A stretch of 64,000 nucleotides of DNA from positions 1-64,000 of the IMG/VR virus record IMGVR_UViG_3300025150_000006; one strand, written 5' to 3'. The DNA comes from a virus. The notes below the pieces were generated by a model that saw only the letters and a program-made list of their open reading frames with translations, searched no databases and was not told the DNA's origin. A program made the translations under genes and the position numbers. Of this stretch, positions 10,139 to 51,696 are shown piece by piece. The stretch's first letter is position 1. Each line of letters begins with the position of its first letter.

Positions 10139-10404
10139 CAGTTCACCTCGATGTCAGAGGCCCACAGGATGCCCTCATCCGGAGCTTCAAGCAACTCGCT
10201 CGACAGACGCTCCCTGATAGAGCGAAGGGTGTCCTGGTGCACCCGGAGACGGCCCACCAGCTCCGCGCTCTGCAAGGCAGGGGAGTAGTATAGGAAGTCG
10301 AGGAAGAACGTGGATCCTGCATCTGGAAGGATACGGAAGGCGTTGACCTCCCCGACCGCCTGGGGACCATCCTCTACAGGGCACTGGATTCTCCTATCCG
10401 CCAC
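10138..10404 (-). CDS. DUF3467-like protein, paralog of 20784-21050
   Basis: NAFRI...FFLDFLYYS...RLRV pattern shared with the 20784 ORF. Confidence 0.6.
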   Translation of the reverse strand: MADRRIQCPVEDGPQAVGEVNAFRILPDAGSTFFLDFLYYSPALQSAELVGRLRVHQDTLRSIRERLSSELLEAPDEGILWASDIEVN

Positions 10405-19254: not shown

Positions 19255-19261
19255 GAGGGTC

Positions 19262-19315
19262 CTCCAGGGTAGGCCTGTCACCAGCACCTACCCTGGAGCC
19301 CCCATAGGGGGAGTA
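19262..19315 (-). promoter_or_regulatory. Class II promoter-like motif overlapping an SD-sequestering hairpin
   Basis: TACTCCCCCTAT-N12-GTAG (19288-19315); 12-bp stem CTCCAGGGTAGG/CCTACCCTGGAG covers GGAG. Confidence 0.65.
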
Positions 19316-26660: not shown

Positions 26661-26823
26661 GCAAAGGATTATACACAGGTAATCCTCCAAGGTGCAGCTG
26701 AAATGAGGATGAGAAGTTCGGAAGAATGCGTCCATTCTTAGTGTGTCGGTCAACCAATGCACGCAACATAACCTACAGCCCAAGCCCTGTTTGAATGGGT
26801 GTGGTGCTTTTAACTCCAAAAGC

Positions 26824-26859
26824 AAAACGCCCCCTCAACCGGAGTTGAGGGGGCGTTTT
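26824..26859. terminator. Bidirectional Rho-independent terminator after the capsid gene
   Basis: AAAACGCCCCCTCAAC-CGGA-GTTGAGGGGGCGTTTT perfect inverted repeat. Confidence 0.9.
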
Positions 26860-26904: not shown

Positions 26905-27777
26905 TCAGCGGGTGACCGTCAGACGAGCCAACCCACGGGGGTTGTAGGCTCCGAGGCCCAAATTTTCAAAAATCGAGAAACCAATCATCCGGCGCTTCGG
27001 GTCGTCGGCCGAGAGGACGGTCAGCTCGGTACGGACGGGGATCCGACCGAACATCTCGGGCTCACAGCAGAGGTAGACCGTACCGTTGGGGACGAGACGG
27101 CTGGTGACGACGTTGGCACCGTAGATCACACCCTGGAGACCGGTCTTGAGCAGGGTTGCCTGGGACTCGATGTCGAGGATGTCGCGGCCGAACTTGCGGA
27201 TGTCCGCGTAGTCCCTGGCGTTCATGTAGATGCGGGCGACCCGGAGGTCATGCCGCTCGATGAGCGCGAAGGCATCCGCGAGGACCGCACCCGAGATGGG
27301 GGCGATGACCGGGATGTCGGCGTTGAGCTGACCGGGGAGGCTGTCGAAACCGGCAGTGGCCACGGAGTCGAGAACGGCGAACACTCGCTCGTCCTCAGCG
27401 GCCTGGATCTGCGCACGCCCGAGGTCCTGGGACCGCTCGATGAGATCGAAACGGCGCTCCTTGATCTGGGTGAGCGGGATCTCCGGGTTCGAGGCGATCT
27501 CGAACAGCGGGAAGATGACACGACGGGGCTTCGTGACGGCGAGGATATTCTGACCCTCTTCGCCGACCACGTATGCCGTGACGTCGGGGTCCTTGTCGTA
27601 GATCGGCAGCGCGCCGTCGGGGAGCTGCTCGACCAGGAAGGTCTTGCGGCCCACGGCGGCGTAGTCGCGACGAGTACGCAGGGGCTGTGTCATCGAGGCA
27701 GCGAGCTTCGCACGACCCTGGGGGGTCTTGATGTACTCGCCGATGATCTTCTGCTTGACAGCGTTGGTGACACTCAT
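26905..27777 (-). CDS. Major capsid protein (HK97-like fold)
   Basis: 290 aa, GAGGAGG SD, extreme codon bias, strong terminator; spine helix (DLIERSQ...IQAAEDERVF) and YGANVVTSRLVP. Confidence 0.85.
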   Translation of the reverse strand: MSVTNAVKQKIIGEYIKTPQGRAKLAASMTQPLRTRRDYAAVGRKTFLVEQLPDGALPIYDKDPDVTAYVVGEEGQNILAVTKPRRVIFPLFEIASNPEIPLTQIKERRFDLIERSQDLGRAQIQAAEDERVFAVLDSVATAGFDSLPGQLNADIPVIAPISGAVLADAFALIERHDLRVARIYMNARDYADIRKFGRDILDIESQATLLKTGLQGVIYGANVVTSRLVPNGTVYLCCEPEMFGRIPVRTELTVLSADDPKRRMIGFSIFENLGLGAYNPRGLARLTVTR

Positions 27778-27790
27778 GACGGTGACCTCC

Positions 27791-28429
27791 TCAGATCCGC
27801 TGGTCGTAGACCAGGTCGCCTTGGGTTGCATCGGGGGCCATCTTCACGATGCCGATGACAGTGGGCTGGAGGTTCTGCACCGTGGCAGCGTGGATGTCCC
27901 CCTGCTCCCAGAGCTGAGCATTGGAGTTGGCATCGTCGGCCGCGAGGGCGTTGGTGAGGTAGCCGTTCTTCGAGGCGAAGAGCTTCTGGCCGACGTTGTA
28001 CGCCGTCAGAGCCACACCGTCGGCGAGCGACTTGTCCTCAAACAGCGTGTTGCCGAACGTACCCTGACCCGAGACGTATGGGTTCTTGCCCGAGGCCGTA
28101 CCCGGCGTGTTCTCGAACGCATTGCCGTTCGCGCTGTTGATGAAGACACCGAGGATGCCGACGTTGCCTGTGCCAACGGCCGGAGGTCCACCGATGAAGT
28201 TGCTGCCGCCGCCTGCATCGCCGCGAGCAAAACAGACCGAGCCGCTCAGAACGCCCGAAAGCGTCTGATCGACCTGAGCCGTGATTGCCGTGGCCACCTG
28301 GGGTGGGTTCGTCTGAGTGAAGGCATCATCGGTCAGCACGCCTACTGAGTTCGCAATCCCGAGGTTCAGGATCCGCAGCGCGCTGCTCGACTCCGTCCAT
28401 CCACCGCTTGCCTGTCCGAGCAAAGGCAT
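27791..28429 (-). CDS. Putative capsid decoration/cement protein
   Basis: Between scaffold and MCP; G/T/N-rich beta protein. Confidence 0.6.
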   Translation of the reverse strand: MPLLGQASGGWTESSSALRILNLGIANSVGVLTDDAFTQTNPPQVATAITAQVDQTLSGVLSGSVCFARGDAGGGSNFIGGPPAVGTGNVGILGVFINSANGNAFENTPGTASGKNPYVSGQGTFGNTLFEDKSLADGVALTAYNVGQKLFASKNGYLTNALAADDANSNAQLWEQGDIHAATVQNLQPTVIGIVKMAPDATQGDLVYDQRI

Positions 28430-28655: not shown

Positions 28656-30269
28656 TCAGGAGAACGAGCCGCTCACGTCGGGGTCGGAGGCCCAGAGGTT
28701 CGACAACTCGTGGATGTCACCGTTGGCCGAGGCGGCCTTGGAGCGGACAGCACCGACGGTCTTGACGCCCTTGCTGGCCTTCTTGGGCTGGGGCTTGAGG
28801 ATGCTGGCCAGGCGAGCGCTGGCCTCCTTGTCGGAGTCCCCACCCTCGTCGTCGGCGTCCTCATCGTCCGACCCGAAGACCTCACGGAAGGCGGCCTCAT
28901 CGGCGGCAGTCAGGTTGGTCCCGTCTGCCAGACCCATCGGGTCGAACCCGGTGGCGAAGAAGTGAGCATCGGCCTCCTTGTCGGAGCCGTCCTCATCATC
29001 CTCGTCCTCGTCCTCGTCGTCCGAAGCCTTCTTCTTGCCGGCCTCGACACCCTCATCGTCGTCATCGTCGGCGTCGGGCTCGTCCTCAGCCTTCTTGGCG
29101 GCCTTCTTGGCCTGGGCGGCCTTCAGGACCATCAGGGCCTTCTTGGCGGCCTTCTTGGCGGCCTCGACCTCGGCATCCGCGTCGTCCTCGTCCTCATCGT
29201 CGTCGGCCTTCTTGGCCTTCTTGCCGGCGACCTCGACGTCATCCTCATCCTCGTCGTCCGAGGCCTGAACACGCATCGCGGCGAGCATCTCCATCTCGTC
29301 ATCGTCGAACTCGTCGCCCATCAGGTCGTCGCCGCAGGCTTCCTTGTCGGAGCCCTCGTCCTTCTTCTTCTCGCAGTTGTCACGAAGCGCCTCGGGGAGC
29401 TTCTCGCAGCCGGCGAGGACCTCGTGGCGAGCGATGATGCCGTCACGGTCGGTGTCCATCGAGGCGAACATGGCACGGGGGCCACCCCAGTCCTCGGCGG
29501 TCACGAAGCCGTCGCCATCGCTGTCGAAGGCATCGAACATCGCCATCACGGGGTTGGCGGCCTTGTCGTTGATGTTCGAGATGGCCTTCTCTTCCGCCTT
29601 CTCCTGCTCAGCCGTCTCGCCAGAAGCACCGATGGTCTGACCATTCGGGTCGTTCTGGCTGGCTGCGGCACGGAGTGCCTTCAGCTCGCTCTCCATCGCG
29701 GAGAGACGGGCCATCAGACCCTCCGTCCCGTCGTCGAGATCCATGTCCATCCCGTCGTCGAGACCCATGTCCATCCCGTCGTCGGGGAACATCCCCATCA
29801 GCTCGTCCTCCATCCCCATGAAGTCCCCACCGAGACGCCCGATGCTGGCGTCGAGAGCGGAGTCGTCCATGGACATGAACCCGAAGGCCTGGTCCTCGAT
29901 GGCATCCCAGGACGCCTTACGACCGTTGGACGTGAGGGTGGCCTTGGCGAGCACGAGGGCCTTCGCCGACTTGCGACGGACCATCTCCATGAGGCTGGCC
30001 TGGCGACCGACCTGACCCTGGTGGGCCGGGTGATCCTGGTCCTCGACCCCGTAGCCGGGAATCGCGGGCGGGCCGCTGTCCCCGTAAGGGCCGGGGTGGA
30101 CGTCCTCGGCGAACTCGGACGGGCCTCCGATCATGTACGGGGCCGAACCCGGGTCATCCTGATCATGAGCCGGGTGATCCTGGTCCTCAACTCCGTAGCC
30201 GGGAAGTGCGGGGGGTGCAGCCGCCTTGCGGTCAAGGGCTGCCCACGTCATGCGCTGACGAATGCTCAT
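28656..30269 (-). CDS. Putative scaffolding protein with an EF-hand pair
   Basis: Between protease and MCP; acidic low complexity; loops DSDGDGFVTAED and DTDRDGIIARHE. Confidence 0.7.
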   Translation of the reverse strand: MSIRQRMTWAALDRKAAAPPALPGYGVEDQDHPAHDQDDPGSAPYMIGGPSEFAEDVHPGPYGDSGPPAIPGYGVEDQDHPAHQGQVGRQASLMEMVRRKSAKALVLAKATLTSNGRKASWDAIEDQAFGFMSMDDSALDASIGRLGGDFMGMEDELMGMFPDDGMDMGLDDGMDMDLDDGTEGLMARLSAMESELKALRAAASQNDPNGQTIGASGETAEQEKAEEKAISNINDKAANPVMAMFDAFDSDGDGFVTAEDWGGPRAMFASMDTDRDGIIARHEVLAGCEKLPEALRDNCEKKKDEGSDKEACGDDLMGDEFDDDEMEMLAAMRVQASDDEDEDDVEVAGKKAKKADDDEDEDDADAEVEAAKKAAKKALMVLKAAQAKKAAKKAEDEPDADDDDDEGVEAGKKKASDDEDEDEDDEDGSDKEADAHFFATGFDPMGLADGTNLTAADEAAFREVFGSDDEDADDEGGDSDKEASARLASILKPQPKKASKGVKTVGAVRSKAASANGDIHELSNLWASDPDVSGSFS

Positions 30270-31774
30270 TGCATGTCTCCTTTGATGTGGCGACTGCCAG
30301 GTGAAACTTGAAACCCACTTCGAGCCTGGCCTCGCCGTGAGATGAGCTTGCCGAGCCTGATAAGAACTCTTGCTTCGGCGGTGGTGGGCTTACGGCCGAG
30401 AGCCGCCTGACAAGCCCGTGCAAACTGATTCAACGACTCGTAGCCCTGAACGGACCCCAGTCGAAGAGCAGTCCGGTACAGGGGCACGGGGATAGACACC
30501 CCGTACTCCTGGTTCAGCAGTGCAACCTTGTCGAGCAGAGCCACATCACTGGATGCGGTCCGGCAGAGGAAACCCAGGGTGGCCCCATACACGAGATTGT
30601 GCTCGCTGGGCACCAGGTCATCCATCTCTGCTTGCTTGACCAGATTGTCGTTGGGAGCCGTTGCGGCATCCTCGGGACCAAGGGCCTCATCAAGGTCCTT
30701 CTGGTCCATGTCCTTCTTGAGCTTCTTTCGCACCCGGTCTTTCAGGTGTGTCTCAAGCTCTTCCTCAACGTCCTCGAAAGGACCCTTCTTGGGCTCTTCC
30801 CTGGCAGGGGCTGCATCATCAGCCGGAGCATCTTCTTCGTCACCCCAACCAGCCATGAAAGAGTCACCATTGCCAAAGGCAATGGCTGCGGCCTTACGGC
30901 GCTGTCCCTTGGTCCACTGCTCGGGAGGGGTCTGGAGGATGACCGAAGCTGCTTTGCCCAGATCATCTCCCTTGTGGATGGCAAGAATGTTCCGAAGCAC
31001 TGCACCAGTGAACGCCGGGGTTCCTACCCACGATGCCTCGATGAACTGATTGCCACCGGTGGGGTCCAGGCTAGGATGCCCGCACAGCTCCGCGACCCGA
31101 TGCTGCCGACCCTGCTCGTCGAAGAAGGTGTTGCCCTTCTCGTATTTGATGTGGGGACACATCTCGGTCTCGTCCGCTGCCCAGTGCCCGCACTTGGTGC
31201 AGATGGTGCCATCGACAGTGCAGCCCATGGACAGGGTGCTCATCTTGCCGGACTCGATGGCCTCTACCAGGTCCTCGTGCTTCCGGTCCGTCGCGATGAG
31301 GATGTCCACATAGACCGTGTCACCGAGGTCTCGGGCCACTGCATCAATGATGCGTCCCTTGCTCAGCTCCTCGACCTGGACGTGCTCGACGAAATTGTGC
31401 CCACCGATGAAGGTCCGGTAGCTCTTGAGCAGAACATCCCGGTCCCAAGCATCGAGGTTGTTGTTGATGTACTTGTCAGCACCGAGCTTGACCCGGAAAT
31501 TGCCAAACTTCCGATTGACCCGGAACCCACCCTCCATCACCGACCCGAGCTTCGCATTGGGTGGGGCGTAGGTATCCACCGATGCAACGATGGTCACATG
31601 GGTGAGTAGGTAGTCCTTCGGGACGAAAAGCTTTCCAAAAATCTCGGATGCCCGGTCGATGAGGTTCTCACTGACCTCTGCCGATGCCTTGGCTGCTTTG
31701 CGGACCTTGGCCCAGCCGGACCCGTTGACGTTGGGCGTTTGGATGGAGCCCCTGGCGAACTTCAAAAAAGCCAT
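30266..31774 (-). CDS. Putative prohead maturation protease with a Zn finger
   Basis: NFVEH...KGRIIDA...TLSMGC, CTKCG...CPH, FIEASWV..PAF; canonical position. Confidence 0.7.
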   Translation of the reverse strand: MAFLKFARGSIQTPNVNGSGWAKVRKAAKASAEVSENLIDRASEIFGKLFVPKDYLLTHVTIVASVDTYAPPNAKLGSVMEGGFRVNRKFGNFRVKLGADKYINNNLDAWDRDVLLKSYRTFIGGHNFVEHVQVEELSKGRIIDAVARDLGDTVYVDILIATDRKHEDLVEAIESGKMSTLSMGCTVDGTICTKCGHWAADETEMCPHIKYEKGNTFFDEQGRQHRVAELCGHPSLDPTGGNQFIEASWVGTPAFTGAVLRNILAIHKGDDLGKAASVILQTPPEQWTKGQRRKAAAIAFGNGDSFMAGWGDEEDAPADDAAPAREEPKKGPFEDVEEELETHLKDRVRKKLKKDMDQKDLDEALGPEDAATAPNDNLVKQAEMDDLVPSEHNLVYGATLGFLCRTASSDVALLDKVALLNQEYGVSIPVPLYRTALRLGSVQGYESLNQFARACQAALGRKPTTAEARVLIRLGKLISRRGQARSGFQVSPGSRHIKGDMQ

Positions 31775-33492: not shown

Positions 33493-36400
33493 TCAGGGAC
33501 CTTCCTCTCCTCCAGACCCCGCAAGAACCGCTTTCTCCATCTCCGAAAACTCTTCCGGGGTCATCTGCTCGATTCTTTTCCGCTCAGCCGGATCCGTGAC
33601 TCCTTCGAGAAAGTCCCTCTTGCGTTCCGCGAACGGGCGCTCGGGCCGAAGGGTCTTGTCCTCCGCCAGCTTAGGATCCGCTCCGGCTGCAATGGCCGTC
33701 ATCACTGCAACGGGGACGTCCTGCGGGTTGGGCTTCTCGTCCATCTCGGACAGAGCATCCACGATGCCCTGAGCCTGAGCCTGCTGGATCTTCTGAGAGC
33801 CGTCCTTCATGCAAACGGCAGCCTCTTCTCCGCTATCCAGGCACTTCTTCAAGAACTCGTCACAGGCTGCATTCATGTCTTCCCGGCTGGCATCTTCCAG
33901 ATCCTTGGCCACCTGGTCGTAGACCTCGGAGCTGTTGCTTGGATCCTTCTTCTGACGAGCGATGCTGGCCGCTACCCCCTGCACGGTCGTCATCGAGTTG
34001 ACACTCATGTCGAGGAGGAGAGACCTCAGGTATTTCTTCACGTCGTCGGACAGTTCACTGTTGCCCAGTGCATCTGCAAGGGACTGCCAGGGGGCATCCT
34101 TGGACATCGTGACCAGGTCCTCATCACTGAGCTTCCCCATAGCATCCCGCACAACTTCCCGGCCTTCCGCCTGGTACATCTGCGTGGGATCCTCCAGAAA
34201 CAGCATCTTGGCACTGTTCTGCTTGACCATTTGCTTGAACAGCACCTTGAGCTTGCTGTTCAGGGGCTCTCTCAGCAACTTCCCATTGGCCCACTTCACG
34301 TCGAAAGGCTCATCGTTGAGCACAGACGCAGCGTGCAGACCGTCGATGATGGAGTTCAACTCCTTGGCCTCTGGAGAGTCCGGAGTCATACCCTTGAGCT
34401 GCTGTACGGCGTTCTCAGCGATCTTGAGCCGGTGCTCCGGGGTCACCCTCCGGTAGAGCTTCATCGCCTGCTCTGCCCGAGACGCCAGAGCGTCACTGTC
34501 CATCGGTTCCGACGACAGAGGCTTCCCGCCCAAGTGACTGGGGTCGAGCAACAGGTGCTCCTGAGCCTTGGCCTGCACAAAGGCCCGTGCCACAGCTTCA
34601 GGACTTGATGTGTCCAGGTGCAGGAAAGGGTCCTTTCCCAGCTCCTGCATCATCTGAACCGTGACATTCTCATCCGCAAGCTCCTTGCGCAGGCCACGCA
34701 TCTCCACCTGGTAGGCCGCATAGAACTCAGGTGACTCCATCATCACCATCACCTGAAGGGCCATGTCCTCTGACAGGATGCCGTCCTTCTCAAGGGACGC
34801 TGCCAACGTCTCTGTCTCATTCTTAAACCGAGCCTTGTCCACCTTGGCCTGCTCGGCCTTCTGCTTCTTCTTGGCCTCCTCCGCCGCTGGGTCCGCCTTG
34901 CCATCCGCATCGGCAGTTCCCTTGGCGTAAGCTGTGGCCTGCTCCTTGGCCTTGTCATCCTCACCGAAAGTGTGGGTGACACCCTTAGGGTTCATTGCCA
35001 CCCAGACACCGGACTCTGCCTGCCAGACATCCCCCGCCTTGTGCTTGCCCTCTTCGGCAATCAGCCTACGCACCCATCGGGAACCCACCCGAGCCTCTTG
35101 TCCCTTCCACCAAGTCCCACGGGACTTGTCCCAGCCTCCCCGTGCTGTCTCGAAACTGAACTCCCGAATCGGGTACGTCACAGACTGGGCTGCAAAGTCC
35201 ATGTCCAACGAGACACGAGCGGCATGAGCGTGGGTGGTTGTCACCCCTCCGGCTGATTGGAACCACAAGGTCCCCTTCTTCCCGGTCTGGGGGTCCTTCA
35301 CCCGCCAACCCAAACCAATGTCGAGAACACGGTACTGGTGGCCCACCAAAGTCACCACAGCGTCAGACTTCTGAGCCCGCTTCTTATAGTTCTGGCTCAG
35401 GTCCTTGTCACCGTCCGCTCCGAAGCTCTCGATGTCAGGGTCATCCTCCCGCATCCTGTGTCGGCGGAGGTCATTCCGGGGAGGCTTCTTGCTTGGGTTC
35501 TTGTGATGCAGTTCCCGGACGTCCTCATCCTCTTTCTCGGCGTGGGTCTTCGTGCCCTCGACGAACCATCGGGCGGCAAGACGACGAGAAGGCTGAGTCA
35601 ATCCCTTGCAGTCCGGGCAGAGATTAGTCGTCTCAACCCGTGGACCCAAGCACCGACACTGGCTGACCGCCCCGCACTTGGGACAGATGTTCCGGTAGTG
35701 CTGCGGCTGTGACCCCTGCTTGTTGAGCCTCTCCTTGACGGTCCCGTCCCGCAGGAAGTTGTCCTCGATGCCAGGCACGAGATACTGGCTGCGCAGAGTG
35801 CTGGCCTCGTGGCCCACCTCAGCGGCGGCCTCGTCCAACGCCTGCTTGAACTCGGCCTTGAGTTTCTTCTGCCGTTCCTTCTTGTCGGTAGGAAGGGTGC
35901 CACCCTTGGAGCGGATGGCCTTGAGCTTGGTCTGCATCTCCCGGTTGGCGTGGAGCCCCCGGATGTCCTTGGCCGTGATGTCAAAGGACTTGAGGTACTC
36001 GTTGATGCCAGAGGCATCCGTCCCCTCGAACACTGAATCCGACCCCGACTTGCCCTCCAGCGCCTTCTCCAACCCGGCCACGAGTGCAGGGTCACTGGTG
36101 CTCTTGGTCTGCTTCACCCCGGACTTGCCCACGTAGGAGATGGTAGCCGTCGAGCCCTTGACGGTGACGTGCTTGGCCTGCCAACCGGTGACGCCGTAGT
36201 GACCGTCCTTGGCTGACGCCTCATTGCCAACGCGCTCGAAGGTGTCGTTCATCAAGCCGACGATCAATGCCTTGTGCCGGGTGGCCTCGTCTCCTGACTT
36301 GAGGTCCTTCTTGACCTGAGCCTGGAGCTTATGGAGCTTGCCACGGAGCTTCTCGATACGGTCAGCCTTGTCCCGGTGCCGGTTGGCGATCTGCTGATCA

Positions 36401-39400
36401 CTGTACTCGTAGACCGTCGTGGTGCCCTTGCCGTCAGCCTTGGGCACCTCCTTCTTGGACTTGAACTTCCCGGCTGCCAGCCTCCCTGAACCGGAGAGCA
36501 CGGGGAAAACCCGGTAGATCTCCTTGATGGCCTTCTTCCACTTGCCTGGTGCCTGTTCCCGCCAGACCTTCATTGGGACAAACACGTCCCCGTGAATCAC
36601 TGAGAGTAGGTAGGCCTTCTGCCTGCTCTCAGCGTCCTCACCCCGAAGATGCTTCTGGGCAGCCTGAATCATGTCCGTCAACTGCGGGTAGAACTCAACG
36701 TCATCCAGGAGATAGTTCTCGGCAAAAGTCTTGCTCTCATCGTAGAGCATCCGCTCTTGGCTGTGCCCCGGCGTCTGGATCCGTTGGGGAGGCAACCCAC
36801 CAGGGCTCCCGAGACTGGCCATGAGAGTCTGAGCAACGTGCTCCATCTCGTGACGGACTGTGTCCTCCAGTGCCTTCAAGGACTGCTTGAACTTGACCTT
36901 GATGTTGAGCGTCTTCGTCTTGGGGTCCCAACTGCCCAGGGAAGAGCCCGTTGCCCATCCCAGCACCACACGAAGGATCTTCCACTCCACGGGCAGCTTC
37001 TTGGGAAGTGCCGAGGCTGGTGACCAACCACTCAGGTCCATTGGGAACTTACGGACCAGAGGCCGTTTGCCTGCCAAGGGGGGTACACCAGGACGGAGAT
37101 AAGGCTTCAGCTCAGCCTCATCCCGTTTCGGGTATCCCATCAGGTCGGCGGCGACTGCGGCCTGCACCCATTCCGTGACGTCCGCCACCATGGCCGGGGG
37201 TGCCGTCCACAGCCCGGCGGTTTTCTGGGACGCATACCGAAGTGCCCGCACCCCTCCGTCGGAGTTGTGCTGGACTTGAGGCTTGTCCTCCCCGGCCTTC
37301 CAAGAGTACCACTGACGTCCCACACGGAACACGTAGCCTAGCACCCCACCACCGTAGTGGTCACCAGGGTCATCCTGAATCCCCTCGAACTCGGTCTGGC
37401 CCCAGGCGAACACAGCATAGGCCTCATCAGCCTTGCTGAACCACTTCTTCATCTGAGACGTGAATCGAGCGGTCTTGAGAAGTGAGACTGGGACCACGGT
37501 CTCGGTCTCCCCAGAGGCTGCCACGGCATCTGCAAACTGCTGGGTGAACAGCAGAGGCAGGGAGTTGACAGGCACGTTCTTCTCAATGCCATCCCCACCT
37601 GTGTCGAGCACGATCTTGTGCGTCACGGCCTGGATGTACCGATGAGCAACTCGGGTTGCCGCCTCCTTGTCCTGCTTGGCCTGAGCCTCATCGTAGCGGA
37701 CCTTGAACACTTGGACCTCTTTCTTGGCCCCCTGACCGGCATCGCCCTTGGGCTTCTTCCTCACGACGATGGTGGGGTCACCTTTCTCCGTCTCCCCGAA
37801 GCCTTCGATGCGACCAGGTGAATTGCGATATTTCCCGAGAAGGACTGGATCCCCAATATTGAGTTCAAACGTCTTTCCCGTCCGGGAAAAGATGCCCGTA
37901 CTCACGGAGTAGTTCTCTGGCCCAACGGATTTGATCTGAGACCCGTTGTCCACTGGGGTGATTCCGTCGCCAAAGTTCGAGGTTGTCGATCCGGTTGTCG
38001 ATCTTGTCCCCATTGATATGGTGGACGGTCTCCGTGCGCAGGAGTCTCCTACCGAGGAATTGCTCCATGACATAGCGATGTTCGAGGATTCTCCTGCCCT
38101 CGACATTGATGCTGCGGTATCCGTCTCGGTTGAGCCATCCCTCACCCTTGAGGGCTCGCTCTGCGGCCTCCGGGTCACCCTTTCGCTTCCAGAGATAGTA
38201 ATGGCGCTCGCAGTATCCCTTTGCATAGTGGTATTCGCCACAACCCTCGACGCCACACGTTCGATCGCGTCTGCGAATCCCCTCCAAGGAGCCCGTCCGC
38301 CTGAGCATGTTGTAGTGGGTGCGGCAGTAACTCCGAACTGCGGGCTTCTTTCCGCAACCATCAAAGGTGCAAGTGAGAGATGGAGGCAAGTCGCCCACCG
38401 GCTCTGGACGTTTCCCTTTTCGGTGTTGTTGGTAGTGCATTGTGCAGAAGCCCCTGGCTTCATGAGCCCGGCAGCATCCTGCCACTGAGCACTGGCGGTC
38501 GTGATGTCGTTCTGATCTTGGTCGTCCCATGACACCAATGTATCAGCACCCTGAATCTGCAACCTGTTCTTGTACTTGCCCATCAGGACCGGGTCCCCGA
38601 CGTTCAACTCGAAAATCTTGGCCGTCCTGCCTCCCTTGAGGTCATCACGGACTCGCTGGGTCAGCCGGCGGCCATCCGAGGCCAGAGCGGGATCATCCAA
38701 CAGGTGACGCCGTGCATAGTCCTGCACCTGCCGCACCGCTGCACCCTTGAGGTTGAACTCTGCCATCAGGGTCTTGGTGTCGAGCACCTTGCCCGGCTGG
38801 TTGAGCACCCGCACATACTGGTCAGAAGCAGCGTGAGACAGCCCTACCGTCACCTCACGCACACGAGCCATCTGATGAGCGTCGAGGAACGTGAGTCGCT
38901 TCCCACTCGGGAGACCCAGATCCATCAGGTCGAAAATGAAATCGACCTTCGCCTCACGATCCACCCAGTTCCCCAGGGAGTCACGGAACACCTTGTCCTT
39001 CTGAGCGATCTCCTTGATCACGTCGAGGAGCCCGAGCTTCTGCATCTCCAACAGAGCCCTCTTGCCCGTGGGCTCCTTCAAGAACGTGTTGATGAGCATC
39101 CCACTCAGATGAGCGGCAGGGATGTTGTGGAGCTTCGCCTTGTTCTTCTCGATGCTCTGCTTGACCTCGGGGGACAGCTTGAATCCGTACTTGATCAGGA
39201 ACTTGATGGCCCTGATCATCCGGCTCGGGTCGTCTGAGAACGTCTTATCCGGGCTGGACGGGCACCGCATCATCCCTTCTTGGAGGTCCTTCAGACCACA
39301 CCCAGAAAGGTCAAGAATCTCAGCCTTTTCCGGGCCTTCAGCCAGATCGTGCAGACGCCAGAGAAGGCAGTTGAACGTAAATTCACGACGACACACATCC

Positions 39401-39828
39401 TGCTCAATGGTCGCGGGTGTGACCTTGTCCGGGGTGTATCCCCCCTGGCCGTAACTCTCCGTCCGAGCATTCGCAATCTCGATGTCTTCACCACGCAGGT
39501 TGGCTTCCCCAAGCATCCAGTCACCGACGATGTGCATCAGAGCCACACCGTACTGGTTGGTCGTGATGTTCGTCTTCGCGGGGATCGCTCGGGCCACTTC
39601 CTTAGCGAACCACTCGGAGTCCTTGCCAGTAGCCACAGAGTCGATGACGACGTCGATGTCCTTCACAGGATACTTTTGCCCTGTAGGGTCCAGCACAAAG
39701 TTCCTTACTGCCCCTCCGACGACATAGACGTGCTTGCTCACACCCAGTCGCTTCGACAGGTCCGAGAGGAACTTCATCAGGGCCAGGCTGGCCTGATCGT
39801 CCATTGCAATGCGGGTTTGTTGAGCCAC
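33493..39828 (-). CDS. Giant putative polyprotein: CCA-adding/poly(A)-polymerase-type nucleotidyltransferase, SH3-like domain, HExxH domain, type IB topoisomerase, Zn finger, helical C-terminal region
   Basis: VVGGAVRN..DIDVV, ARTESY, DVCRREFTFNCL, DPSRMIRA; HEMEH; ERVGN..GKSG..KDIR..GH..SQYL; likely GTG start at 39828 after GGAG. Confidence 0.85.
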   Translation of the reverse strand: MAQQTRIAMDDQASLALMKFLSDLSKRLGVSKHVYVVGGAVRNFVLDPTGQKYPVKDIDVVIDSVATGKDSEWFAKEVARAIPAKTNITTNQYGVALMHIVGDWMLGEANLRGEDIEIANARTESYGQGGYTPDKVTPATIEQDVCRREFTFNCLLWRLHDLAEGPEKAEILDLSGCGLKDLQEGMMRCPSSPDKTFSDDPSRMIRAIKFLIKYGFKLSPEVKQSIEKNKAKLHNIPAAHLSGMLINTFLKEPTGKRALLEMQKLGLLDVIKEIAQKDKVFRDSLGNWVDREAKVDFIFDLMDLGLPSGKRLTFLDAHQMARVREVTVGLSHAASDQYVRVLNQPGKVLDTKTLMAEFNLKGAAVRQVQDYARRHLLDDPALASDGRRLTQRVRDDLKGGRTAKIFELNVGDPVLMGKYKNRLQIQGADTLVSWDDQDQNDITTASAQWQDAAGLMKPGASAQCTTNNTEKGNVQSRWATCLHLSLAPLMVAERSPQFGVTAAPTTTCSGGRAPWRGFADAIERVASRVVANTTMQRDTASAITISGSERVTRRPQSEPSRVRDGSTETDTAASMSRAGESSNIAMSWSNSSVGDSCARRPSTISMGTRSTTGSTTSNFGDGITPVDNGSQIKSVGPENYSVSTGIFSRTGKTFELNIGDPVLLGKYRNSPGRIEGFGETEKGDPTIVVRKKPKGDAGQGAKKEVQVFKVRYDEAQAKQDKEAATRVAHRYIQAVTHKIVLDTGGDGIEKNVPVNSLPLLFTQQFADAVAASGETETVVPVSLLKTARFTSQMKKWFSKADEAYAVFAWGQTEFEGIQDDPGDHYGGGVLGYVFRVGRQWYSWKAGEDKPQVQHNSDGGVRALRYASQKTAGLWTAPPAMVADVTEWVQAAVAADLMGYPKRDEAELKPYLRPGVPPLAGKRPLVRKFPMDLSGWSPASALPKKLPVEWKILRVVLGWATGSSLGSWDPKTKTLNIKVKFKQSLKALEDTVRHEMEHVAQTLMASLGSPGGLPPQRIQTPGHSQERMLYDESKTFAENYLLDDVEFYPQLTDMIQAAQKHLRGEDAESRQKAYLLSVIHGDVFVPMKVWREQAPGKWKKAIKEIYRVFPVLSGSGRLAAGKFKSKKEVPKADGKGTTTVYEYSDQQIANRHRDKADRIEKLRGKLHKLQAQVKKDLKSGDEATRHKALIVGLMNDTFERVGNEASAKDGHYGVTGWQAKHVTVKGSTATISYVGKSGVKQTKSTSDPALVAGLEKALEGKSGSDSVFEGTDASGINEYLKSFDITAKDIRGLHANREMQTKLKAIRSKGGTLPTDKKERQKKLKAEFKQALDEAAAEVGHEASTLRSQYLVPGIEDNFLRDGTVKERLNKQGSQPQHYRNICPKCGAVSQCRCLGPRVETTNLCPDCKGLTQPSRRLAARWFVEGTKTHAEKEDEDVRELHHKNPSKKPPRNDLRRHRMREDDPDIESFGADGDKDLSQNYKKRAQKSDAVVTLVGHQYRVLDIGLGWRVKDPQTGKKGTLWFQSAGGVTTTHAHAARVSLDMDFAAQSVTYPIREFSFETARGGWDKSRGTWWKGQEARVGSRWVRRLIAEEGKHKAGDVWQAESGVWVAMNPKGVTHTFGEDDKAKEQATAYAKGTADADGKADPAAEEAKKKQKAEQAKVDKARFKNETETLAASLEKDGILSEDMALQVMVMMESPEFYAAYQVEMRGLRKELADENVTVQMMQELGKDPFLHLDTSSPEAVARAFVQAKAQEHLLLDPSHLGGKPLSSEPMDSDALASRAEQAMKLYRRVTPEHRLKIAENAVQQLKGMTPDSPEAKELNSIIDGLHAASVLNDEPFDVKWANGKLLREPLNSKLKVLFKQMVKQNSAKMLFLEDPTQMYQAEGREVVRDAMGKLSDEDLVTMSKDAPWQSLADALGNSELSDDVKKYLRSLLLDMSVNSMTTVQGVAASIARQKKDPSNSSEVYDQVAKDLEDASREDMNAACDEFLKKCLDSGEEAAVCMKDGSQKIQQAQAQGIVDALSEMDEKPNPQDVPVAVMTAIAAGADPKLAEDKTLRPERPFAERKRDFLEGVTDPAERKRIEQMTPEEFSEMEKAVLAGSGGEEGP
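35740..36471 (-). other. Type IB (poxvirus/bacterial-like) topoisomerase catalytic domain inside the polyprotein
   Basis: Catalytic R, K, R, H, Y present in the expected contexts. Confidence 0.8.
37822..37884 (-). repeat. Recoded copy 2 of a 21-codon duplication
   Basis: RTGKTFELNIGDPVLLGKYRN versus copy 1 RTAKIFELNVGDPVLMGKYKN. Confidence 0.85.
37865..38530 (-). CDS. HNH homing endonuclease nested out of frame in the polyprotein gene
   Basis: Three CxxxGC...CxxHY repeats plus EHRYVME..VHHINGDKIDNRIDNLELW; TG-A-TACATT 6 nt upstream of ATG. Confidence 0.9.
   Translation of the reverse strand: MGRPRSERHHDRQCSVAGCCRAHEARGFCTMHYQQHRKGKRPEPVGDLPPSLTCTFDGCGKKPAVRSYCRTHYNMLRRTGSLEGIRRRDRTCGVEGCGEYHYAKGYCERHYYLWKRKGDPEAAERALKGEGWLNRDGYRSINVEGRRILEHRYVMEQFLGRRLLRTETVHHINGDKIDNRIDNLELWRRNHPSGQRVSDQIRWARELLREYGHLFPDGKDV
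38566..38628 (-). repeat. Copy 1 of the 21-codon duplication
   Basis: See 37822-37884. Confidence 0.85.
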
Positions 39829-39840
39829 AGGCCACTCCAA

Positions 39841-39881
39841 TGAGGTCCCCTTCTGTTCAAGGGGACCTCATAGGCGAACAA
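39841..39881 (-). promoter_or_regulatory. Partial class II motif overlapping a 12-bp hairpin upstream of the polyprotein gene
   Basis: TTGTTCGCCTAT; TGAGGTCCCCTT/AAGGGGACCTCA. Confidence 0.5.
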
Positions 39882-40699
39882 CCGCCTAGAACCTGAAAAG
39901 CACCCTCATCCTCCGAAACATCTTGCAGGCGGGATTCCGCCACACCCGTCCAGTGAGGATCACGGTCCACACCCCGGAAAGACATCCCCTCAAGAATTGC
40001 AGCTTCACCTGTAGTGCCAGACCCACAAAAAGGGTCTACGACCACCCCTCCAGGAGGGCACACCACCCGAACCAGTTGCCGCATCCAACCCACCGTTTTC
40101 TCGGCGGGATGGTCGTGCTTGTGTTTTGAGACTGGGAACCCCTCAAACAGGTGAGACAACCGAGGTTCCCCCACCTGCATGTACCCCACCCCCCATTGTT
40201 CGTGGTTAGCCTTCGAGGATTGCTGTGTCCCCGGCTTACGAGCCAGCACCCACAGTTCTGTTTCCTGTACAAGCTGGGTAGACAATCCACCATCGACCAA
40301 AGGGGATTTGGGCCTACGGCGATGCAGACGACGGATCAGGATGTCAATGGTAGGGAGACCTGCACGTTCCAGGCCCTCCATCAGCCAATGGAGGCTGGAC
40401 TGGAAACCCCAAAACACCCCATAGCCACCCGGCTTCAACACCCGGCTACATTGTTCAAGTACAGGATAAACCTGTTTCTCAAAACCAGGACGCATCGCCA
40501 AATGAGTCCGATGATGGGTTTGAAAATTGGCTCGTGTCCGGTTAGTGGGGGAATCCCAACCGAGGTAACGTGAATCCCCGCCCCCGAAAGGAACCATCAT
40601 ATTCCGACCAGAGGGCGGATCGGTAACAATGGCATCAGCACTGTTGTCTGGCCACGAACCCATCACATCAGCCGCATCCCCCAGACTCACATCATACAT
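39857..40699 (-). CDS. DNA N6-A/N4-C methyltransferase (beta class)
   Basis: IVTDPPS, HPAEKT, DPFCGSGTT. Confidence 0.85.
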   Translation of the reverse strand: MYDVSLGDAADVMGSWPDNSADAIVTDPPSGRNMMVPFGGGDSRYLGWDSPTNRTRANFQTHHRTHLAMRPGFEKQVYPVLEQCSRVLKPGGYGVFWGFQSSLHWLMEGLERAGLPTIDILIRRLHRRRPKSPLVDGGLSTQLVQETELWVLARKPGTQQSSKANHEQWGVGYMQVGEPRLSHLFEGFPVSKHKHDHPAEKTVGWMRQLVRVVCPPGGVVVDPFCGSGTTGEAAILEGMSFRGVDRDPHWTGVAESRLQDVSEDEGAFQVLGGCSPMRSP

Positions 40700-42393
40700 C
40701 AGAACCGACCCTCGCCCTCAACCTTGGGCTTCGTGTACTTGAGGCCCAGGTACTCAGCAATCTTCGCCGTGAAGTCCGTGTTCTCCGCGAGACCATCACC
40801 AACCCTGGTGTAGAGGCCTCGAAGGATCTCGTTGAACGTCGCGTCCTGGAACGTACCGAAGTCTCGTGCCAGCTTCTCGCGAATCGTGATGGGGTCGAGG
40901 TTGAGATGTTCGAGGATGGTGTCGATGTCGAGGGACCCCTTCTGGTAGAGGTTCATCAGAGCATCGAAGGTCTCGGTGTTGTCACGGAAGGAGAGCCTGG
41001 TGAACGAGAGGTGCGGGACGATGACCTGAAGGACACCATCCTCATCCTCCTCAACGAACCCCATCCGCAGACACATCGGCCGGAAGAACTGGTCCTCGAC
41101 CAGTTCTTGCAGAGTCTCCCGCATCAGCATAAACCTGGTGTTGATGACCTCCAGGTTGATGCGGTCTCCCGAGTAGCTGGACTCACCCGACAACAGACTC
41201 TCGGTCACGCCCAGGCCGGCATACATATGCCGGTCGGTCATGTCGAAGACCCAACTCCAGTCAGGCAGCCGCTGGTCCGCACCCATCTCCTCCCAGGTGA
41301 CCTGGAAGTTGGTGATGATCGAGAAGTCCGGGTCTTGCAGAGCAAGGTCAACCTGCTCTCGCAAGTCCTCCGTCTGCTCAGCGTTCATGTCCTCGGCGTA
41401 GATCAACCGGTAGGGCGTCATGTGCCGGGAAGCGATCGAAGTCAGTGATTGTCGGACCTTGTCGCGGAACACCAGTGTTCGGAGGCACCGTTCGAGGATG
41501 CTCTTGCCCCGTGGCTCGTACTGGGACTTCTTCCGGGCCATGTTGTAGTAGAAGGAACCGGCCTCGGGGTCCGTGTTGAGAGGGACGTTCATCCCCTCTG
41601 AGATAGCGGCCACCACATCTTGTGGCATCGAGTTCACGATGCGGATGGCGTTGGGGTCACCGGACTGGGCTCGATTGAAGATAGCCTTCGTCTTCGAGTC
41701 CGGGATCAGCTCGACCAGCTTCTCCTCGGTGAAGGGGAAGCTCTCGATGTGAATCTGCTCCGGGGGCAGGGTCCGCACCGCAGACCAACCCTTGTAGTTC
41801 TTCTTGAGCCAAGCGACGGCCCGCTCCTTGGCGTCCTCCCGAACGACCTTCCTCTCAACGACCTCGCCCTCCTTGGTGATCTCCCGAACGACCTCGTACT
41901 CGACCGTGTCGGGCATGTCGTCGGAGGTGTCCTCACAGAAGATATGGGCCTCACCAAGCAGGTTCCACTCGTGACTGATCTCCATCAGCCGGTGAAGGAG
42001 ACCCACCCGCTTCGCCCAGTTCTCACAGAACCGGAGAGCCGCAGCCGCCAACTTCTCGTTCTTCGCTGCGGGTTTACGAAGCCGTACCTTGGACAAGGGA
42101 AGCTCGTCGAGCAGGTCGATGGCCTGCCCCACGAAGGGGTCGTGGTCGTAGAAGAAGCGGAAATAGTTGCGCTTCTCGTCATCGGACTGGGGCAGCTCCA
42201 GGAAGTCCGTGGACAGCTCGGGGGAGTAGAAGTTGCCTCCGGCACCCATGGAGGTGTTGCCACCTCCGCCTGCCAGGGAAGCCGCCCGCATCGAAGAAGT
42301 GAGGATCTTGGTGGGCTTTCCCACGGTCACACCCGCACGCTCCGCAATCTTGCGGACCACAATGGTGCTGTCAGGGTCATTCGTCCTAGCCAT
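40699..42393 (-). CDS. Portal protein
   Basis: 564 aa between TerL and head genes; FYDHDPFVGQAID and RGKSILERC portal-like motifs. Confidence 0.8.
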   Translation of the reverse strand: MARTNDPDSTIVVRKIAERAGVTVGKPTKILTSSMRAASLAGGGGNTSMGAGGNFYSPELSTDFLELPQSDDEKRNYFRFFYDHDPFVGQAIDLLDELPLSKVRLRKPAAKNEKLAAAALRFCENWAKRVGLLHRLMEISHEWNLLGEAHIFCEDTSDDMPDTVEYEVVREITKEGEVVERKVVREDAKERAVAWLKKNYKGWSAVRTLPPEQIHIESFPFTEEKLVELIPDSKTKAIFNRAQSGDPNAIRIVNSMPQDVVAAISEGMNVPLNTDPEAGSFYYNMARKKSQYEPRGKSILERCLRTLVFRDKVRQSLTSIASRHMTPYRLIYAEDMNAEQTEDLREQVDLALQDPDFSIITNFQVTWEEMGADQRLPDWSWVFDMTDRHMYAGLGVTESLLSGESSYSGDRINLEVINTRFMLMRETLQELVEDQFFRPMCLRMGFVEEDEDGVLQVIVPHLSFTRLSFRDNTETFDALMNLYQKGSLDIDTILEHLNLDPITIREKLARDFGTFQDATFNEILRGLYTRVGDGLAENTDFTAKIAEYLGLKYTKPKVEGEGRF

Positions 42394-51064: not shown

Positions 51065-51648
51065 GAAGGGCCTCCCTCGTCCATTTCAGCTTCTTCACCC
51101 TCGGCCCAATCCTCGGGGTCTTCCTTGATCTCATCCACGTCATCCATGATCTGCTGGACCTCTGAACGGGCGCGGGGGTCTCCACCGGAGTCGTTCACGT
51201 CGGGATGCCAGTGGATGGCCTTGATCTCATCATCGAGTGTATCTGCAATGGAGGACAGAGCCTCATCACAGTTCGAGAGCTGCTTACGGATGTCCTTCAC
51301 GGGCATCACATAGCCCTTGCCCCCGAGATTCCCATCAGGAGAGATCCTCTGACTCTTGATCTTCGTGAACGTCGTGCGGGCGGTCTGGATGTGACCAAGC
51401 GCCATCAGCACACTGCGGAGGGTCCGAGCAAGGGGCTCAAGATTCTTGCCGTCGAACTTGTAGTCGGGGTCGATGTTCCGCTCGGAAGAACCAGGTGGGT
51501 TCCAGCCCCACTCGTGGTGGTCCCCGCCCCGATCCTTAATGAACCGGACCTCGCCAGCCGTCTTCGACCGTGTCGGCCGCAAGGCCGCCCGCACGAAACG
51601 TGCAGTGACTCGCTCAACGGCTTGTTTCATCTGGCGGTTATCGGACAC
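51061..51648 (-). CDS. Putative internal head protein
   Basis: VERVTARFVRA and SKTAG motifs. Confidence 0.7.
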   Translation of the reverse strand: MSDNRQMKQAVERVTARFVRAALRPTRSKTAGEVRFIKDRGGDHHEWGWNPPGSSERNIDPDYKFDGKNLEPLARTLRSVLMALGHIQTARTTFTKIKSQRISPDGNLGGKGYVMPVKDIRKQLSNCDEALSSIADTLDDEIKAIHWHPDVNDSGGDPRARSEVQQIMDDVDEIKEDPEDWAEGEEAEMDEGGPS

Positions 51649-51668: not shown

Positions 51669-51696
51669 CTACTGGTTCGCTGGTATAGGCTCACTA
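51669..51696 (-). promoter_or_regulatory. Class II promoter-like motif
   Basis: TAGTGAGCCTAT-N12-GTAG. Confidence 0.7.

What the first reader, a model, noticed from the sequence alone, without database searches (positions are those of the whole stretch)
33493..39828. Putative virion-packaged enzyme polyprotein: tRNA-CCA-type nucleotidyltransferase plus topoisomerase IB, placed between portal and prohead protease
Seen: one ~2110-aa ORF in the head module. It strings together a class II nucleotidyltransferase (GGAVR, DID, RREFTFN, DPSRMIRA), an SH3-like domain, an HExxH domain, a Topo IB core with R/K/R/H/Y intact, a Zn finger and a helical domain. Domain boundaries repeatedly carry [KR]-x-A (TRIA, GRTA, DKEA, LKTA, QKTA, GRLA, RRLIA) and R-[VL]-A-x-R-[YFW] helices. 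Known: T4 and phiKZ prohead proteases cut many internal proteins at short motifs; CCA-adding enzymes restore tRNA 3' ends. Inference: the protein is packaged, cut into separate enzymes and injected, so tRNA repair (countering tRNA-attacking defences) and DNA relaxation are available before phage transcription.
Basis: partly seen in the sequence, partly recalled or inferred. Interest (0 to 1): 0.92.

Follow-up and report, generated by a model that had tools for sequence, protein, structure and literature searches.

The report
Tagged enzyme-cargo protein with hidden HNH
A huge groundwater phage encodes, among its head-building genes, one 2,115-residue chain of swappable enzymes (a tRNA-end nucleotidyltransferase, a zinc-motif domain, a topoisomerase IB) joined by a short recurring peptide tag, and a selfish HNH nuclease gene sits hidden in a shifted reading frame inside it.

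Summary
The ORF is real (33493-39840, minus strand).

They are the host-frame read-through of a complete out-of-frame HNH homing-endonuclease gene (37865-38530). It is flanked by a duplicated start of the SH3-like module. This is the 'ShiLan-type' element published in 2025.

The protein belongs to a large, unpublished metagenomic subfamily of polyvalent proteins. In relatives the gene keeps its place between portal and prohead protease while its enzyme modules change, many of them for RNA repair.

[KR]-x-A is not enriched (20 seen, 27 expected). The longer motif R-V-A-x-R-[YFW] is enriched 26-fold in homologues, sits at module starts and also tags other proteins of this genome.

Packaging, cleavage and injection remain inferences.

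This scan has already found both the family and hidden HNH genes on other DNA.

Verdict: a new variant of a known kind, of moderate to high interest.

The parts
33493..39840 (-). Whole ORF: polyvalent (multi-enzyme) protein. 2115 aa from TTG 39840, or 2111 aa from GTG 39828.
   Evidence: P0002 is the identical database cluster
38629..39840 (-). Class II (CCA-adding / poly(A) polymerase family) nucleotidyltransferase, res 1-404. Motifs GGAVRNF, DID, RREFTFN, DDPSRMIRA.
   Evidence: Pfam PolyA_pol 3.4e-13; phrog_2244 2.8e-27; PDB 3aql poly(A) polymerase 2.9e-16 and CCA enzymes about 1e-14 to 1e-10
38566..38613 (-). Copy 1: truncated start of the SH3-like module (FELNVGDPVLMGKYKN, res 410-425). 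GC3 of res 408-426 is 0.95. Left behind upstream of the insert.
37865..38530 (-). Hidden HNH homing-endonuclease gene: 221 aa, ATG to TGA. It is in the frame where (HNH start - host start) mod 3 = 2.
   Evidence: Pfam HNH_3 1.4e-8; phrog_20891 4.4e-23; frame relation
37876..38562 (-). Host-frame read-through of the insert (res 427-655). Polar and Ser/Thr/Gly/Arg-rich, poor in Lys/Glu, with no stop codon.
37693..37875 (-). SH3-like small module (res 656-716). Its first ~20 codons (copy 2, 37822-37869) are recoded and AT-richer (GC3 0.40 against 0.75 for the gene).
   Evidence: the SH3/KOW-like fold is only a lead
37204..37692 (-). Module of unknown function (res 717-879). It is introduced by the tag TRVAHRY (37636-37656). 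Homologous pieces sit at other positions in relatives.
36475..37203 (-). HExxH + Glu domain (res 880-1122; H997, E998, H1001, E1049). Probably a gluzincin-like metallopeptidase. No Pfam family.
   Evidence: 193 homologues, many stand-alone; invariant H-E-x-x-H...E; AF2 pLDDT 94; only weak Foldseek hits, nearly all to zincin / HExxH-type proteins; no Pfam
35731..36474 (-). Topoisomerase IB catalytic domain (res 1123-1370). Pentad R1203, K1239, R1294, H1344, Y1353. Preceded by the tag variant GRLAAGKF.
   Evidence: Pfam Topoisom_I 3.3e-25; PDB 2f4q Deinococcus TopIB 5e-13; residues invariant in alignment A1
35602..35691 (-). Cys-rich zinc-ribbon-like element (res 1384-1413).
   Evidence: sequence; shared with 5 homologues
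35566..35586 (-). Tag RRLAARW (res 1419-1425), ahead of the conserved basic module.
35371..35550 (-). Conserved basic/acidic module (res 1431-1490; KKPPR.DLRR.RM ... DLS.NYKK).
   Evidence: 66 of 97 homologues; invariant columns
35056..35370 (-). Lineage-specific module (res 1491-1595), conserved in the host frame in one homologue (P0052, 60%).
34906..35055 (-). Conserved HK(P/A)GDVW...NP.G..HTFG module (res 1596-1645).
33496..34905 (-). Conserved C-terminal all-helical domain (res 1646-2115). No known fold relative found.
   Evidence: 58 of 97 homologues match res 1761-2115 and 14 match res 1646-1760; AF2 pLDDT 87, pTM 0.77; Foldseek pdb and viral E > 0.1; VIA best Z 7.9
40699..42393 (-). Context: portal gene.
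   Evidence: phrog_16240 7e-30
30266..31774 (-). Context: head maturation protease.
   Evidence: phrog_18299 3.8e-13
26905..27831 (-). Context: major head protein.
   Evidence: phrog_2522 2e-48; 84% to uncultured 485-kb phage LR745208.1, 40% to Bacillus phage G

Best explanation
The gene encodes a tag-punctuated polyvalent protein of a phage-G-like huge phage from groundwater.

A conserved backbone carries interchangeable modules. The backbone is an N-terminal class II nucleotidyltransferase, a small SH3-like module, topoisomerase IB, a basic module and a helical C-terminal domain. In this phage the extra modules include a gluzincin-like HExxH+E domain and a zinc ribbon. Modules are introduced by a short motif, A-x-R-V-A-A-R-[YWF]. 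The same motif also sits near the ends of several separate proteins of this genome.

The gene holds a fixed place in the head-morphogenesis block. From this and from its membership of the polyvalent class, I infer that the protein is loaded into the capsid and delivered with the DNA. There it would supply tRNA 3'-end rebuilding or RNA tailing, and DNA relaxation, before phage genes are expressed. It may be cut into pieces, by its own zincin or by the prohead protease. These steps are not shown.

Shown separately: a ShiLan-type selfish element has invaded the start of the SH3-like module. A complete HNH endonuclease gene lies in a shifted frame. The host frame is kept free of stops across about 230 codons. 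Ribosomes therefore most likely read through it as a polar linker, while the HNH is made by internal initiation. The element brought a recoded copy of the first ~20 codons of the module and left the old, truncated copy upstream.
For: Domains and catalytic residues.

Family:
- 98 large homologues combine PolyA_pol and/or Topoisom_I with changing cargo.
- Relatives carry ART-PolyVal, Kinase-PolyVal, LPD1 and InPase, the signature domains of polyvalent proteins.
- Relatives also carry RNA-repair domains.
- Modules occupy different positions in different homologues.

Head-module synteny is kept in at least 8 related contigs, with MCP up to 97% identical, while the length of the homologous match ranges from about 5.2 to 9.5 kb.

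Tag:
- 163 observed against 6.3 expected in homologues.
- 10.3% of homology-block starts lie within 15 aa of a tag, against 1.4% for random positions.
- It precedes 38 unrelated downstream sequence clusters.
- It occurs 8 times against 1.0 expected in this 105-kb record, including at residues 12-13 of two small proteins.

Hidden HNH:
- Family hits.
- +1-frame stop density in this genome is 0.031 per codon, so P(no stop in 248 codons) is about 5e-4; 0 of 1320 windows were stop-free.
- Only 3 of 81 HNH-homologue loci have an open +1 frame, and all three are nested in host genes.
- The same layout sits at the SH3-like module in L004 and L112, with the same frame offset.
- No Rfam intron hit, and no room for a ribozyme.
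- No intein domain in the host frame.
- Copy 2 has GC3 0.40 against 0.75 for the gene.
- The same junctions appear in independent metagenome assemblies, including a 2025 hot-spring run.
- The layout was published for mycobacteriophage methylases (PMC11855218).
Against: No virion proteome, transcript or protein data exist for this phage or any close relative. Packaging rests on gene position and on the class prediction of Iyer et al. 2017.

The HExxH domain has no significant structural match (best Foldseek E 0.04; VIA uninformative).

The C-terminal domain that might anchor the protein in the head has no recognisable relative.

The tag could be a structural N-cap of modules rather than an address or cut site. 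Because it is conserved, alignments may also tend to start at it, which would inflate the border statistic.

The HNH start has only a weak Shine-Dalgarno-like GGTG.

Read-through of the insert is inferred from the absence of stops, not observed.
Confidence: 0.6

Rival explanations
1. The prohead protease cuts the chain at short [KR]-x-A sites into free enzymes, which are then injected.
For: GG[KR]xA closes the nucleotidyltransferase domain in 6 of 8 aligned relatives, and [KR]-x-A-A-[KR]-[FY] precedes topoisomerase IB in all 8. The protease gene is 1.7 kb downstream. R-V-A inside the tag fits [KR]-x-A.
Against: [KR]-x-A is, if anything, depleted in the protein (20 against 27.2 +/- 4.6). What is conserved is a longer motif. 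The characterised jumbo-phage and T4 head proteases cut after Glu in S/A/G-x-E or L/I-x-E (my own knowledge); that motif is at most marginally enriched here (39 against 30.6). The protein has its own HExxH+E domain.
Confidence: 0.2
2. The protein is not packaged. It is a late-expressed cytoplasmic multi-enzyme serving the infected cell, with DNA relaxation for replication or packaging and tRNA maintenance. Its position next to the portal gene reflects only co-expression.
For: CCA enzymes and type IB topoisomerases also occur as ordinary stand-alone genes in jumbo phages (PMC7824862; stand-alone tRNA nucleotidyltransferase genes in phage G, Myrna and others).
Against: The position between portal and protease is strictly kept while the content changes. 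ART-PolyVal, Kinase-PolyVal and LPD1 occur in relatives. A tag is shared with other proteins.
Confidence: 0.2
3. The insert is removed before the protein is finished, as a group I intron, an intein or a long translational bypass. In that case the mature protein has no junk linker.
For: Homing endonucleases usually ride in introns or inteins. This genome has a LAGLIDADG intein in TerL. Duplicated flanks recall take-off and landing sites.
Against: No Rfam match at E <= 1 in 37000-39200. Only about 35 nt lie between copy 1 and the HNH start, and the HNH stop overlaps copy 2. There is no Hint or intein domain in the host frame. An open host frame would not need to be maintained if the insert were spliced out as RNA, yet it is open in all five nested cases.
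Confidence: 0.05
4. The insertion split or crippled the gene. The nucleotidyltransferase part ends in junk, and the downstream part is expressed on its own or not at all.
For: Some homologues lack the nucleotidyltransferase and begin about 100-200 residues before the SH3-like module (P0011, P0013). A GTG lies a few codons before copy 2.
Against: The frame is open over 248 codons against odds of about 5e-4. The same holds in L004 and L112. The allele is found nearly unchanged in many samples.
Confidence: 0.08

Closest known systems
Polyvalent proteins of phages and conjugative elements (Iyer, Burroughs, Anand, de Souza, Aravind 2017; PMC5512222)
   Same: Many unrelated enzymatic domains in one polypeptide. 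Encoded next to virion genes. A zincin-like peptidase motif is among the domains. Relatives carry ART-PolyVal, Kinase-PolyVal, LPD1 and InPase.
   Different: That paper's text never mentions CCA, and mentions topoisomerase only in a reference title. The backbone here is different: class II nucleotidyltransferase + SH3-like + Topo IB + helical C-terminus. It has no MuF domain and carries a recurring R-V-A-x-R-[YFW] module tag.
ShiLan domain / Pacc40 gp60 insertion: hidden out-of-frame HNH endonucleases in mycobacteriophage DNA methylases (Arsenault, Gosselin, Gogarten 2025; PMC11855218)
   Same: A complete HNH gene in a shifted frame inside a host gene. The host frame has no stops. No intron or intein features. 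The start of the insertion repeats the peptide that follows the insertion site.
   Different: The host gene is a huge-phage polyvalent protein and the target is the start of an SH3-like module. The repeat is 16-19 residues, with 11 of 14 conserved residues recoded. The same HNH lineage (45-47% identity) sits at the same module in two other phages.
T4 capsid-targeting sequences on IPI-III and Alt, and the proteolysed inner-body proteins of phiKZ (my own knowledge)
   Same: Enzymes or internal proteins are loaded into the prohead through a short peptide and trimmed by the prohead protease. Alt is injected and acts before phage transcription.
   Different: There each protein is separate and carries one N-terminal signal that is cut after Glu. 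Here the tag is internal, repeated and of different sequence, and neither loading nor cutting has been shown.
Vaccinia topoisomerase IB, an encapsidated type IB enzyme (my own knowledge); bacterial TopIB of Deinococcus (PDB 2f4q)
   Same: Same catalytic domain and pentad. Vaccinia gives a precedent for a virion-carried type IB topoisomerase.
   Different: Here it is fused into a 2,115-residue chain in a bacteriophage.

Membership tests
Polyvalent proteins (Iyer et al. 2017) | Several unrelated catalytic or binding domains in one polypeptide of a phage or conjugative element | tested here: met
   Nucleotidyltransferase, HExxH+E domain, Topo IB, zinc ribbon and further modules in a virus record
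Polyvalent proteins (Iyer et al. 2017) | Signature domains of the class (ART-PolyVal, Kinase-PolyVal, LPD domains, zincin MPTase) | tested here: inconclusive
   Present in homologues. In this protein there is only an HExxH+E domain with no Pfam match. Its nearest named Atlas cluster is LPD23, at 0.89.
Polyvalent proteins (Iyer et al. 2017) | Encoded among virion / late genes | tested here: met
   Lies between portal and protease, and this synteny is conserved
Polyvalent proteins (Iyer et al. 2017) | Packaged and delivered with the DNA | not testable with these tools
   No proteome or RNA data; no RNA run listed
Class II nucleotidyltransferases (CCA-adding / poly(A) polymerase) | Head-domain motifs A (GGxVR, DxD), B (RR[DE]xTxN) and D ([ED]DxxR) | tested here: met
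   Residues 42-48, 61-63, 151-157 and 203-207. Pfam score is above the gathering cut-off.
Class II nucleotidyltransferases (CCA-adding / poly(A) polymerase) | CCA-adding rather than poly(A) or A-adding specificity | not testable with these tools
   The best solved match is E. coli poly(A) polymerase (2.9e-16), with CCA enzymes close behind. PolyA_pol_RNAbd is below its cut-off.
Topoisomerase IB | Catalytic core with the Arg-Lys-Arg-His-Tyr pentad | tested here: met
   Pfam 89 bits against a cut-off of 23.7. R1203, K1239, R1294, H1344 and Y1353 are invariant in 8 relatives. PDB 2f4q at 5e-13.
Hidden out-of-frame HNH insertion (ShiLan type) | Complete HNH ORF in another frame of the same strand inside a host gene | tested here: met
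   37865-38530; HNH_3 and phrog_20891
Hidden out-of-frame HNH insertion (ShiLan type) | Host frame free of stops across the insert beyond chance | tested here: met
   P about 5e-4; 0 of 1320 control windows; 78 of 81 HNH homologues have 1-26 stops in that frame
Hidden out-of-frame HNH insertion (ShiLan type) | No intron or intein machinery | tested here: met
   No Rfam hit, no space outside the ORF, no intein domain in the host frame
Hidden out-of-frame HNH insertion (ShiLan type) | Active homing (cleavage of the uninvaded allele) | not testable with these tools
   Only indirect signs: the insert is present in 1 of about 98 homologues, and the flank is recoded
Zincin (gluzincin) metallopeptidases | HExxH on a helix after a beta-sheet, with a third Glu ligand on a later helix | tested here: inconclusive
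   H, E, H and E are invariant in 37 sequences and the predicted topology fits. Fold matches are weak: anthrax lethal factor E 0.04, IrrE, selecase. VIA was not informative.
SH3-like / KOW-like small barrel | Five-stranded small beta-barrel fold | tested here: inconclusive
   No Pfam match. Atlas leads at <= 0.80 to R67 DHFR, SH3 and KOW clusters.
Group I intron | Ribozyme core detectable by a covariance model | tested here: not met
   No Rfam match at E <= 1 in 37000-39200
T4-type capsid-targeting sequence / protease-trimmed internal proteins | Short terminal peptide that directs a protein into the prohead and is removed by the head protease | not testable with these tools
   The tag lies at residues 12-13 of two small proteins and near the C-terminus of two others. 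This is suggestive only.

The most novel reading that the evidence does not exclude
R-V-A-x-R-[YFW] is a portable capsid address, possibly also a cut site. It would define an exchangeable enzyme-cargo system in phage-G-like huge phages: any module or separate protein that carries it is loaded into the head and injected. The hidden HNH element that homes to the start of the SH3-like module would be one of the engines that recombines and reshuffles these cargo chains between phages.
Probability: 0.3. Interest if true: 0.8.

Novelty: new variant of a known kind. Interest (0 to 1): 0.6.

Why it matters
If the inference holds, huge phages carry a customisable kit of enzymes in the capsid, with RNA end repair, DNA relaxation and protein modification. 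These would act before any phage gene is expressed. That would be a direct answer to tRNA-cutting and other early host defences.

A short peptide tag would give a testable rule for what gets packed. It could also be used to load foreign proteins into capsids.

The nested HNH gene shows that a modular protein can absorb a homing endonuclease with no splicing at all. This extends a lifestyle so far published only for mycobacteriophage methylases.

None of this is demonstrated yet. What is solid is the architecture, the tag statistics and the hidden gene.

Tried and rejected
- Group I intron: no Rfam match at E <= 1. Intein: no such domain in the host frame.
- [KR]-x-A enrichment: rejected. T4- or phiKZ-type [LI]-x-E is not enriched and [ASG]-x-E only marginally.
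- Isolated phages: no full-length relative. Only separate nucleotidyltransferase hits and one uncultured 485-kb phage for the Topo region.
- Pfam on the middle, zinc-ribbon, C-terminal and SH3-like pieces: nothing.
- C-terminal domain: Foldseek pdb and viral found no match with E <= 0.001. VIA wide gave best Z 7.9, which is generic for helical proteins.
- HExxH model: VIA wide was dominated by its helical tail and was not informative. A profile against PDB sequences found nothing significant.
- A global alignment of the middle region with full-length homologues (A3) misaligned because modules are shuffled, so I dropped it.
- Sequencing runs: no RNA holder was listed. Contigs of four DNA runs showed no joint that skips the insert. 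This is not evidence that insert-free alleles are absent.
- A nucleotide signature shared by endonuclease-linked SH3 starts (GGGGATCCAGT): seen in 2 linked copies and absent from 6 unlinked ones. That is too few to use.
- A sharp recombination break at the insert: segment identities are mosaic and give no clear answer.
I obtained context from the search for related loci instead.

Full report
**The ORF and its domains.** The window holds one open frame on the minus strand, 33493-39840. It is 2115 aa from a TTG.

The listed motifs are all there:
- GGAVRNF (res 42-48)
- KDIDVVID (60-67)
- RREFTFN (151-157)
- DDPSRMIRA (203-211)
- HEMEH (997-1001)
- a Cys-rich ribbon (1384-1413)

Pfam gives PolyA_pol (3.4e-13) and Topoisom_I (3.3e-25). 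PHROGs calls the N-terminus a tRNA nucleotidyltransferase. The Topo IB residues R1203, K1239, R1294, H1344 and Y1353 are invariant among eight relatives, and the domain matches Deinococcus TopIB.

The nucleotidyltransferase matches E. coli poly(A) polymerase slightly better than CCA-adding enzymes. The product, CCA or poly(A), therefore cannot be read from the sequence.

Residues 427-655 look like non-protein sequence. A complete 221-aa HNH endonuclease gene (37865-38530; HNH_3 1.4e-8, phrog_20891 4e-23) lies in another frame of the same strand inside this stretch.

It is flanked by two copies of the start of the SH3-like module, FELNVGDPVLMGKYKN and FELNIGDPVLLGKYRN. Of 14 shared residues, 11 use different codons. 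Copy 2 has GC3 0.40 against 0.75 for the rest of the gene.

Relatives have either nothing or other modules at this place. Only this protein has two copies.

Evidence against splicing:
- No Rfam intron match.
- Only about 35 nt lie between copy 1 and the HNH start, and the HNH stop overlaps copy 2.
- The host frame holds no intein domain.

**The open host frame is not chance.**
- In this genome the +1 frame of genes has 0.031 stops per codon. That gives about 5e-4 for 248 stop-free codons, and none of 1320 control windows was open.
- Among 81 loci with HNH homologues, 78 have 1-26 stops in that frame. The three without are all nested in host genes: this one, L004 and L077.
- L004 is a 481-aa SH3-module protein with the same duplication.
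- L077 is a DNA methylase with two nested HNH genes.
- L112 is another polyvalent protein with a 46%-identical HNH directly before its SH3-like module.
- All five nested genes have the same frame offset, and most have a Shine-Dalgarno-like sequence before their ATG.

This is the layout published in 2025 as the ShiLan domain (PMC11855218). Here it is in a new host gene.

The junctions are present in independent metagenome assemblies. These include a 2025 hot-spring run whose contig differs at 2 of 2401 positions.

**The family.** The word search returned 98 proteins of 1,173-3,429 aa. They combine PolyA_pol and/or Topoisom_I with changing domains. Pfam names I checked include:
- ART-PolyVal, Kinase-PolyVal, LPD1 and InPase
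- NUDIX and PAP2
- HAD_SAK_1, RNA_ligase, 2_5_RNA_ligase2, cREC_REC and tRNA_lig_CPD
- ChaC, DUF5661 and LAGLIDADG inteins

The first group are the signature domains of the polyvalent proteins of Iyer et al. 2017. That paper's text does not mention CCA enzymes or type IB topoisomerases. The same group's jumbo-phage review lists both only as separate functions.

Pieces of this protein sit at different positions in different homologues.

In related viral contigs the order TerL-g184-portal-[this gene]-g253-g288-protease-g537-g212-MCP is kept. MCP is up to 97% identical, while the length of the homologous match ranges from about 5.2 to 9.5 kb.

The record is 105 kb, estimated 24% complete. Its MCP is 84% identical to that of an uncultured 485-kb phage and 40% to that of Bacillus phage G.

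**The boundary motifs.** [KR]-x-A is not enriched (20 against 27.2 +/- 4.6). The longer motif is a different matter:
- [RK][VLIM]A.[RK][FYW] occurs 163 times in 97 homologues against 6.3 expected. Its consensus is A-x-R-V-A-A-R-Y-[LQ].
- 10.3% of a protein's homology-block starts lie within 15 residues of a motif, against 1.4% for random positions.
- It precedes 38 unrelated downstream sequence clusters, including the nucleotidyltransferase, SH3-like, Topo IB and basic modules.
- In this genome it occurs 8 times against 1.0 expected. It sits at residues 12-13 of two small proteins and close to the C-terminus of two others.

The motif is thus a real, portable module tag. Its role as address, cut site or structural cap is not shown.

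**Unknown modules.**
- The HExxH region has 193 homologues, many of them stand-alone proteins of 250-450 aa. H, E, H and a Glu 48 residues later are invariant.
- It folds with pLDDT 94 as a beta-sheet, then the HExxH helix, then a helical bundle.
- It has no Pfam family and only weak fold hits, nearly all to zincin / HExxH-type proteins. A gluzincin-like peptidase is likely but not proven. It offers a second candidate for any processing.
- The C-terminal 470 residues form a confident helical domain with no recognisable relative.
- The SH3-like assignment remains a lead.

**Conclusion.**
- Solid: the observation, apart from [KR]-x-A and the overlooked insert.
- Supported: the 'enzyme cargo with swappable domains' part of the interpretation.
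- Inferred only: packaging, cutting and injection.

This scan has met the same family and the same kind of hidden HNH on other genomes. I found no paper on the nucleotidyltransferase-Topo IB subfamily or on its tag.

Noticed in passing
window 43199-47545 (-): The large terminase ORF is 1448 aa because it carries a LAGLIDADG intein (Intein_splicing 1.6e-16 and LAGLIDADG_3 4.6e-24, residues about 168-611).
   Followed up: partly
window 24522-26825 (-): A 767-aa ORF combines a LAGLIDADG_2 endonuclease, several HTH motifs and the start of an N6_N4 DNA methylase. It is another selfish-nuclease locus just past the capsid gene.
   Followed up: no
window 39857-40699 (-): A 280-aa N6/N4 DNA methylase sits between portal and the polyvalent gene. 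Close relatives (L083, L096) have no gene there. L082 has a GIY-YIG-like endonuclease ORF at the same spot, identified by eye from its sequence and not run against Pfam. The junction looks like a hot spot for insertions.
   Followed up: partly
L077:2-2269 (+), nested ORFs 697-1188 and 1627-2046: A 755-aa DNA methylase frame stays open across two separate out-of-frame HNH genes. The first is flanked by a repeated peptide (DIIIAQKPL / PIIVAMKPL).
   Followed up: partly
L004:3804-5249 (+), nested ORF 4004-4495: In a 312-kb phage contig, a small 481-aa protein with the same SH3-like module carries a 45%-identical hidden HNH. It is flanked by RVAARYLKRAGYFNVGDY / RVAARFLRTSGFFNVGDY, so here the repeat includes the tag.
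   Followed up: partly
L112:8849-17269 (+), nested ORF 9874-10386: A 2806-aa polyvalent relative has a hidden HNH before its SH3-like module and, in addition, a LAGLIDADG intein inside its nucleotidyltransferase domain.
   Followed up: partly
window 51061-51648, 51694-52551, 16383-18842, 18844-19287 (all -); G000 86186-87613 and 100092-101504: Separate proteins carry the R-V-A-x-R-[YFW]-type tag near an end (VERVTARF at residue 13, DRLADRY at 12, RKLAARY at 807 of 819, DRVAVRF at 134 of 147). The last ORF repeats TRVAHRYIQA almost exactly as in the polyvalent protein.
   Followed up: partly
window 28656-30269 (-): The 537-aa protein between protease and capsid genes has an EF-hand calcium-binding motif (EF-hand_1 9e-9). 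This is unusual for a scaffold-position protein.
   Followed up: no
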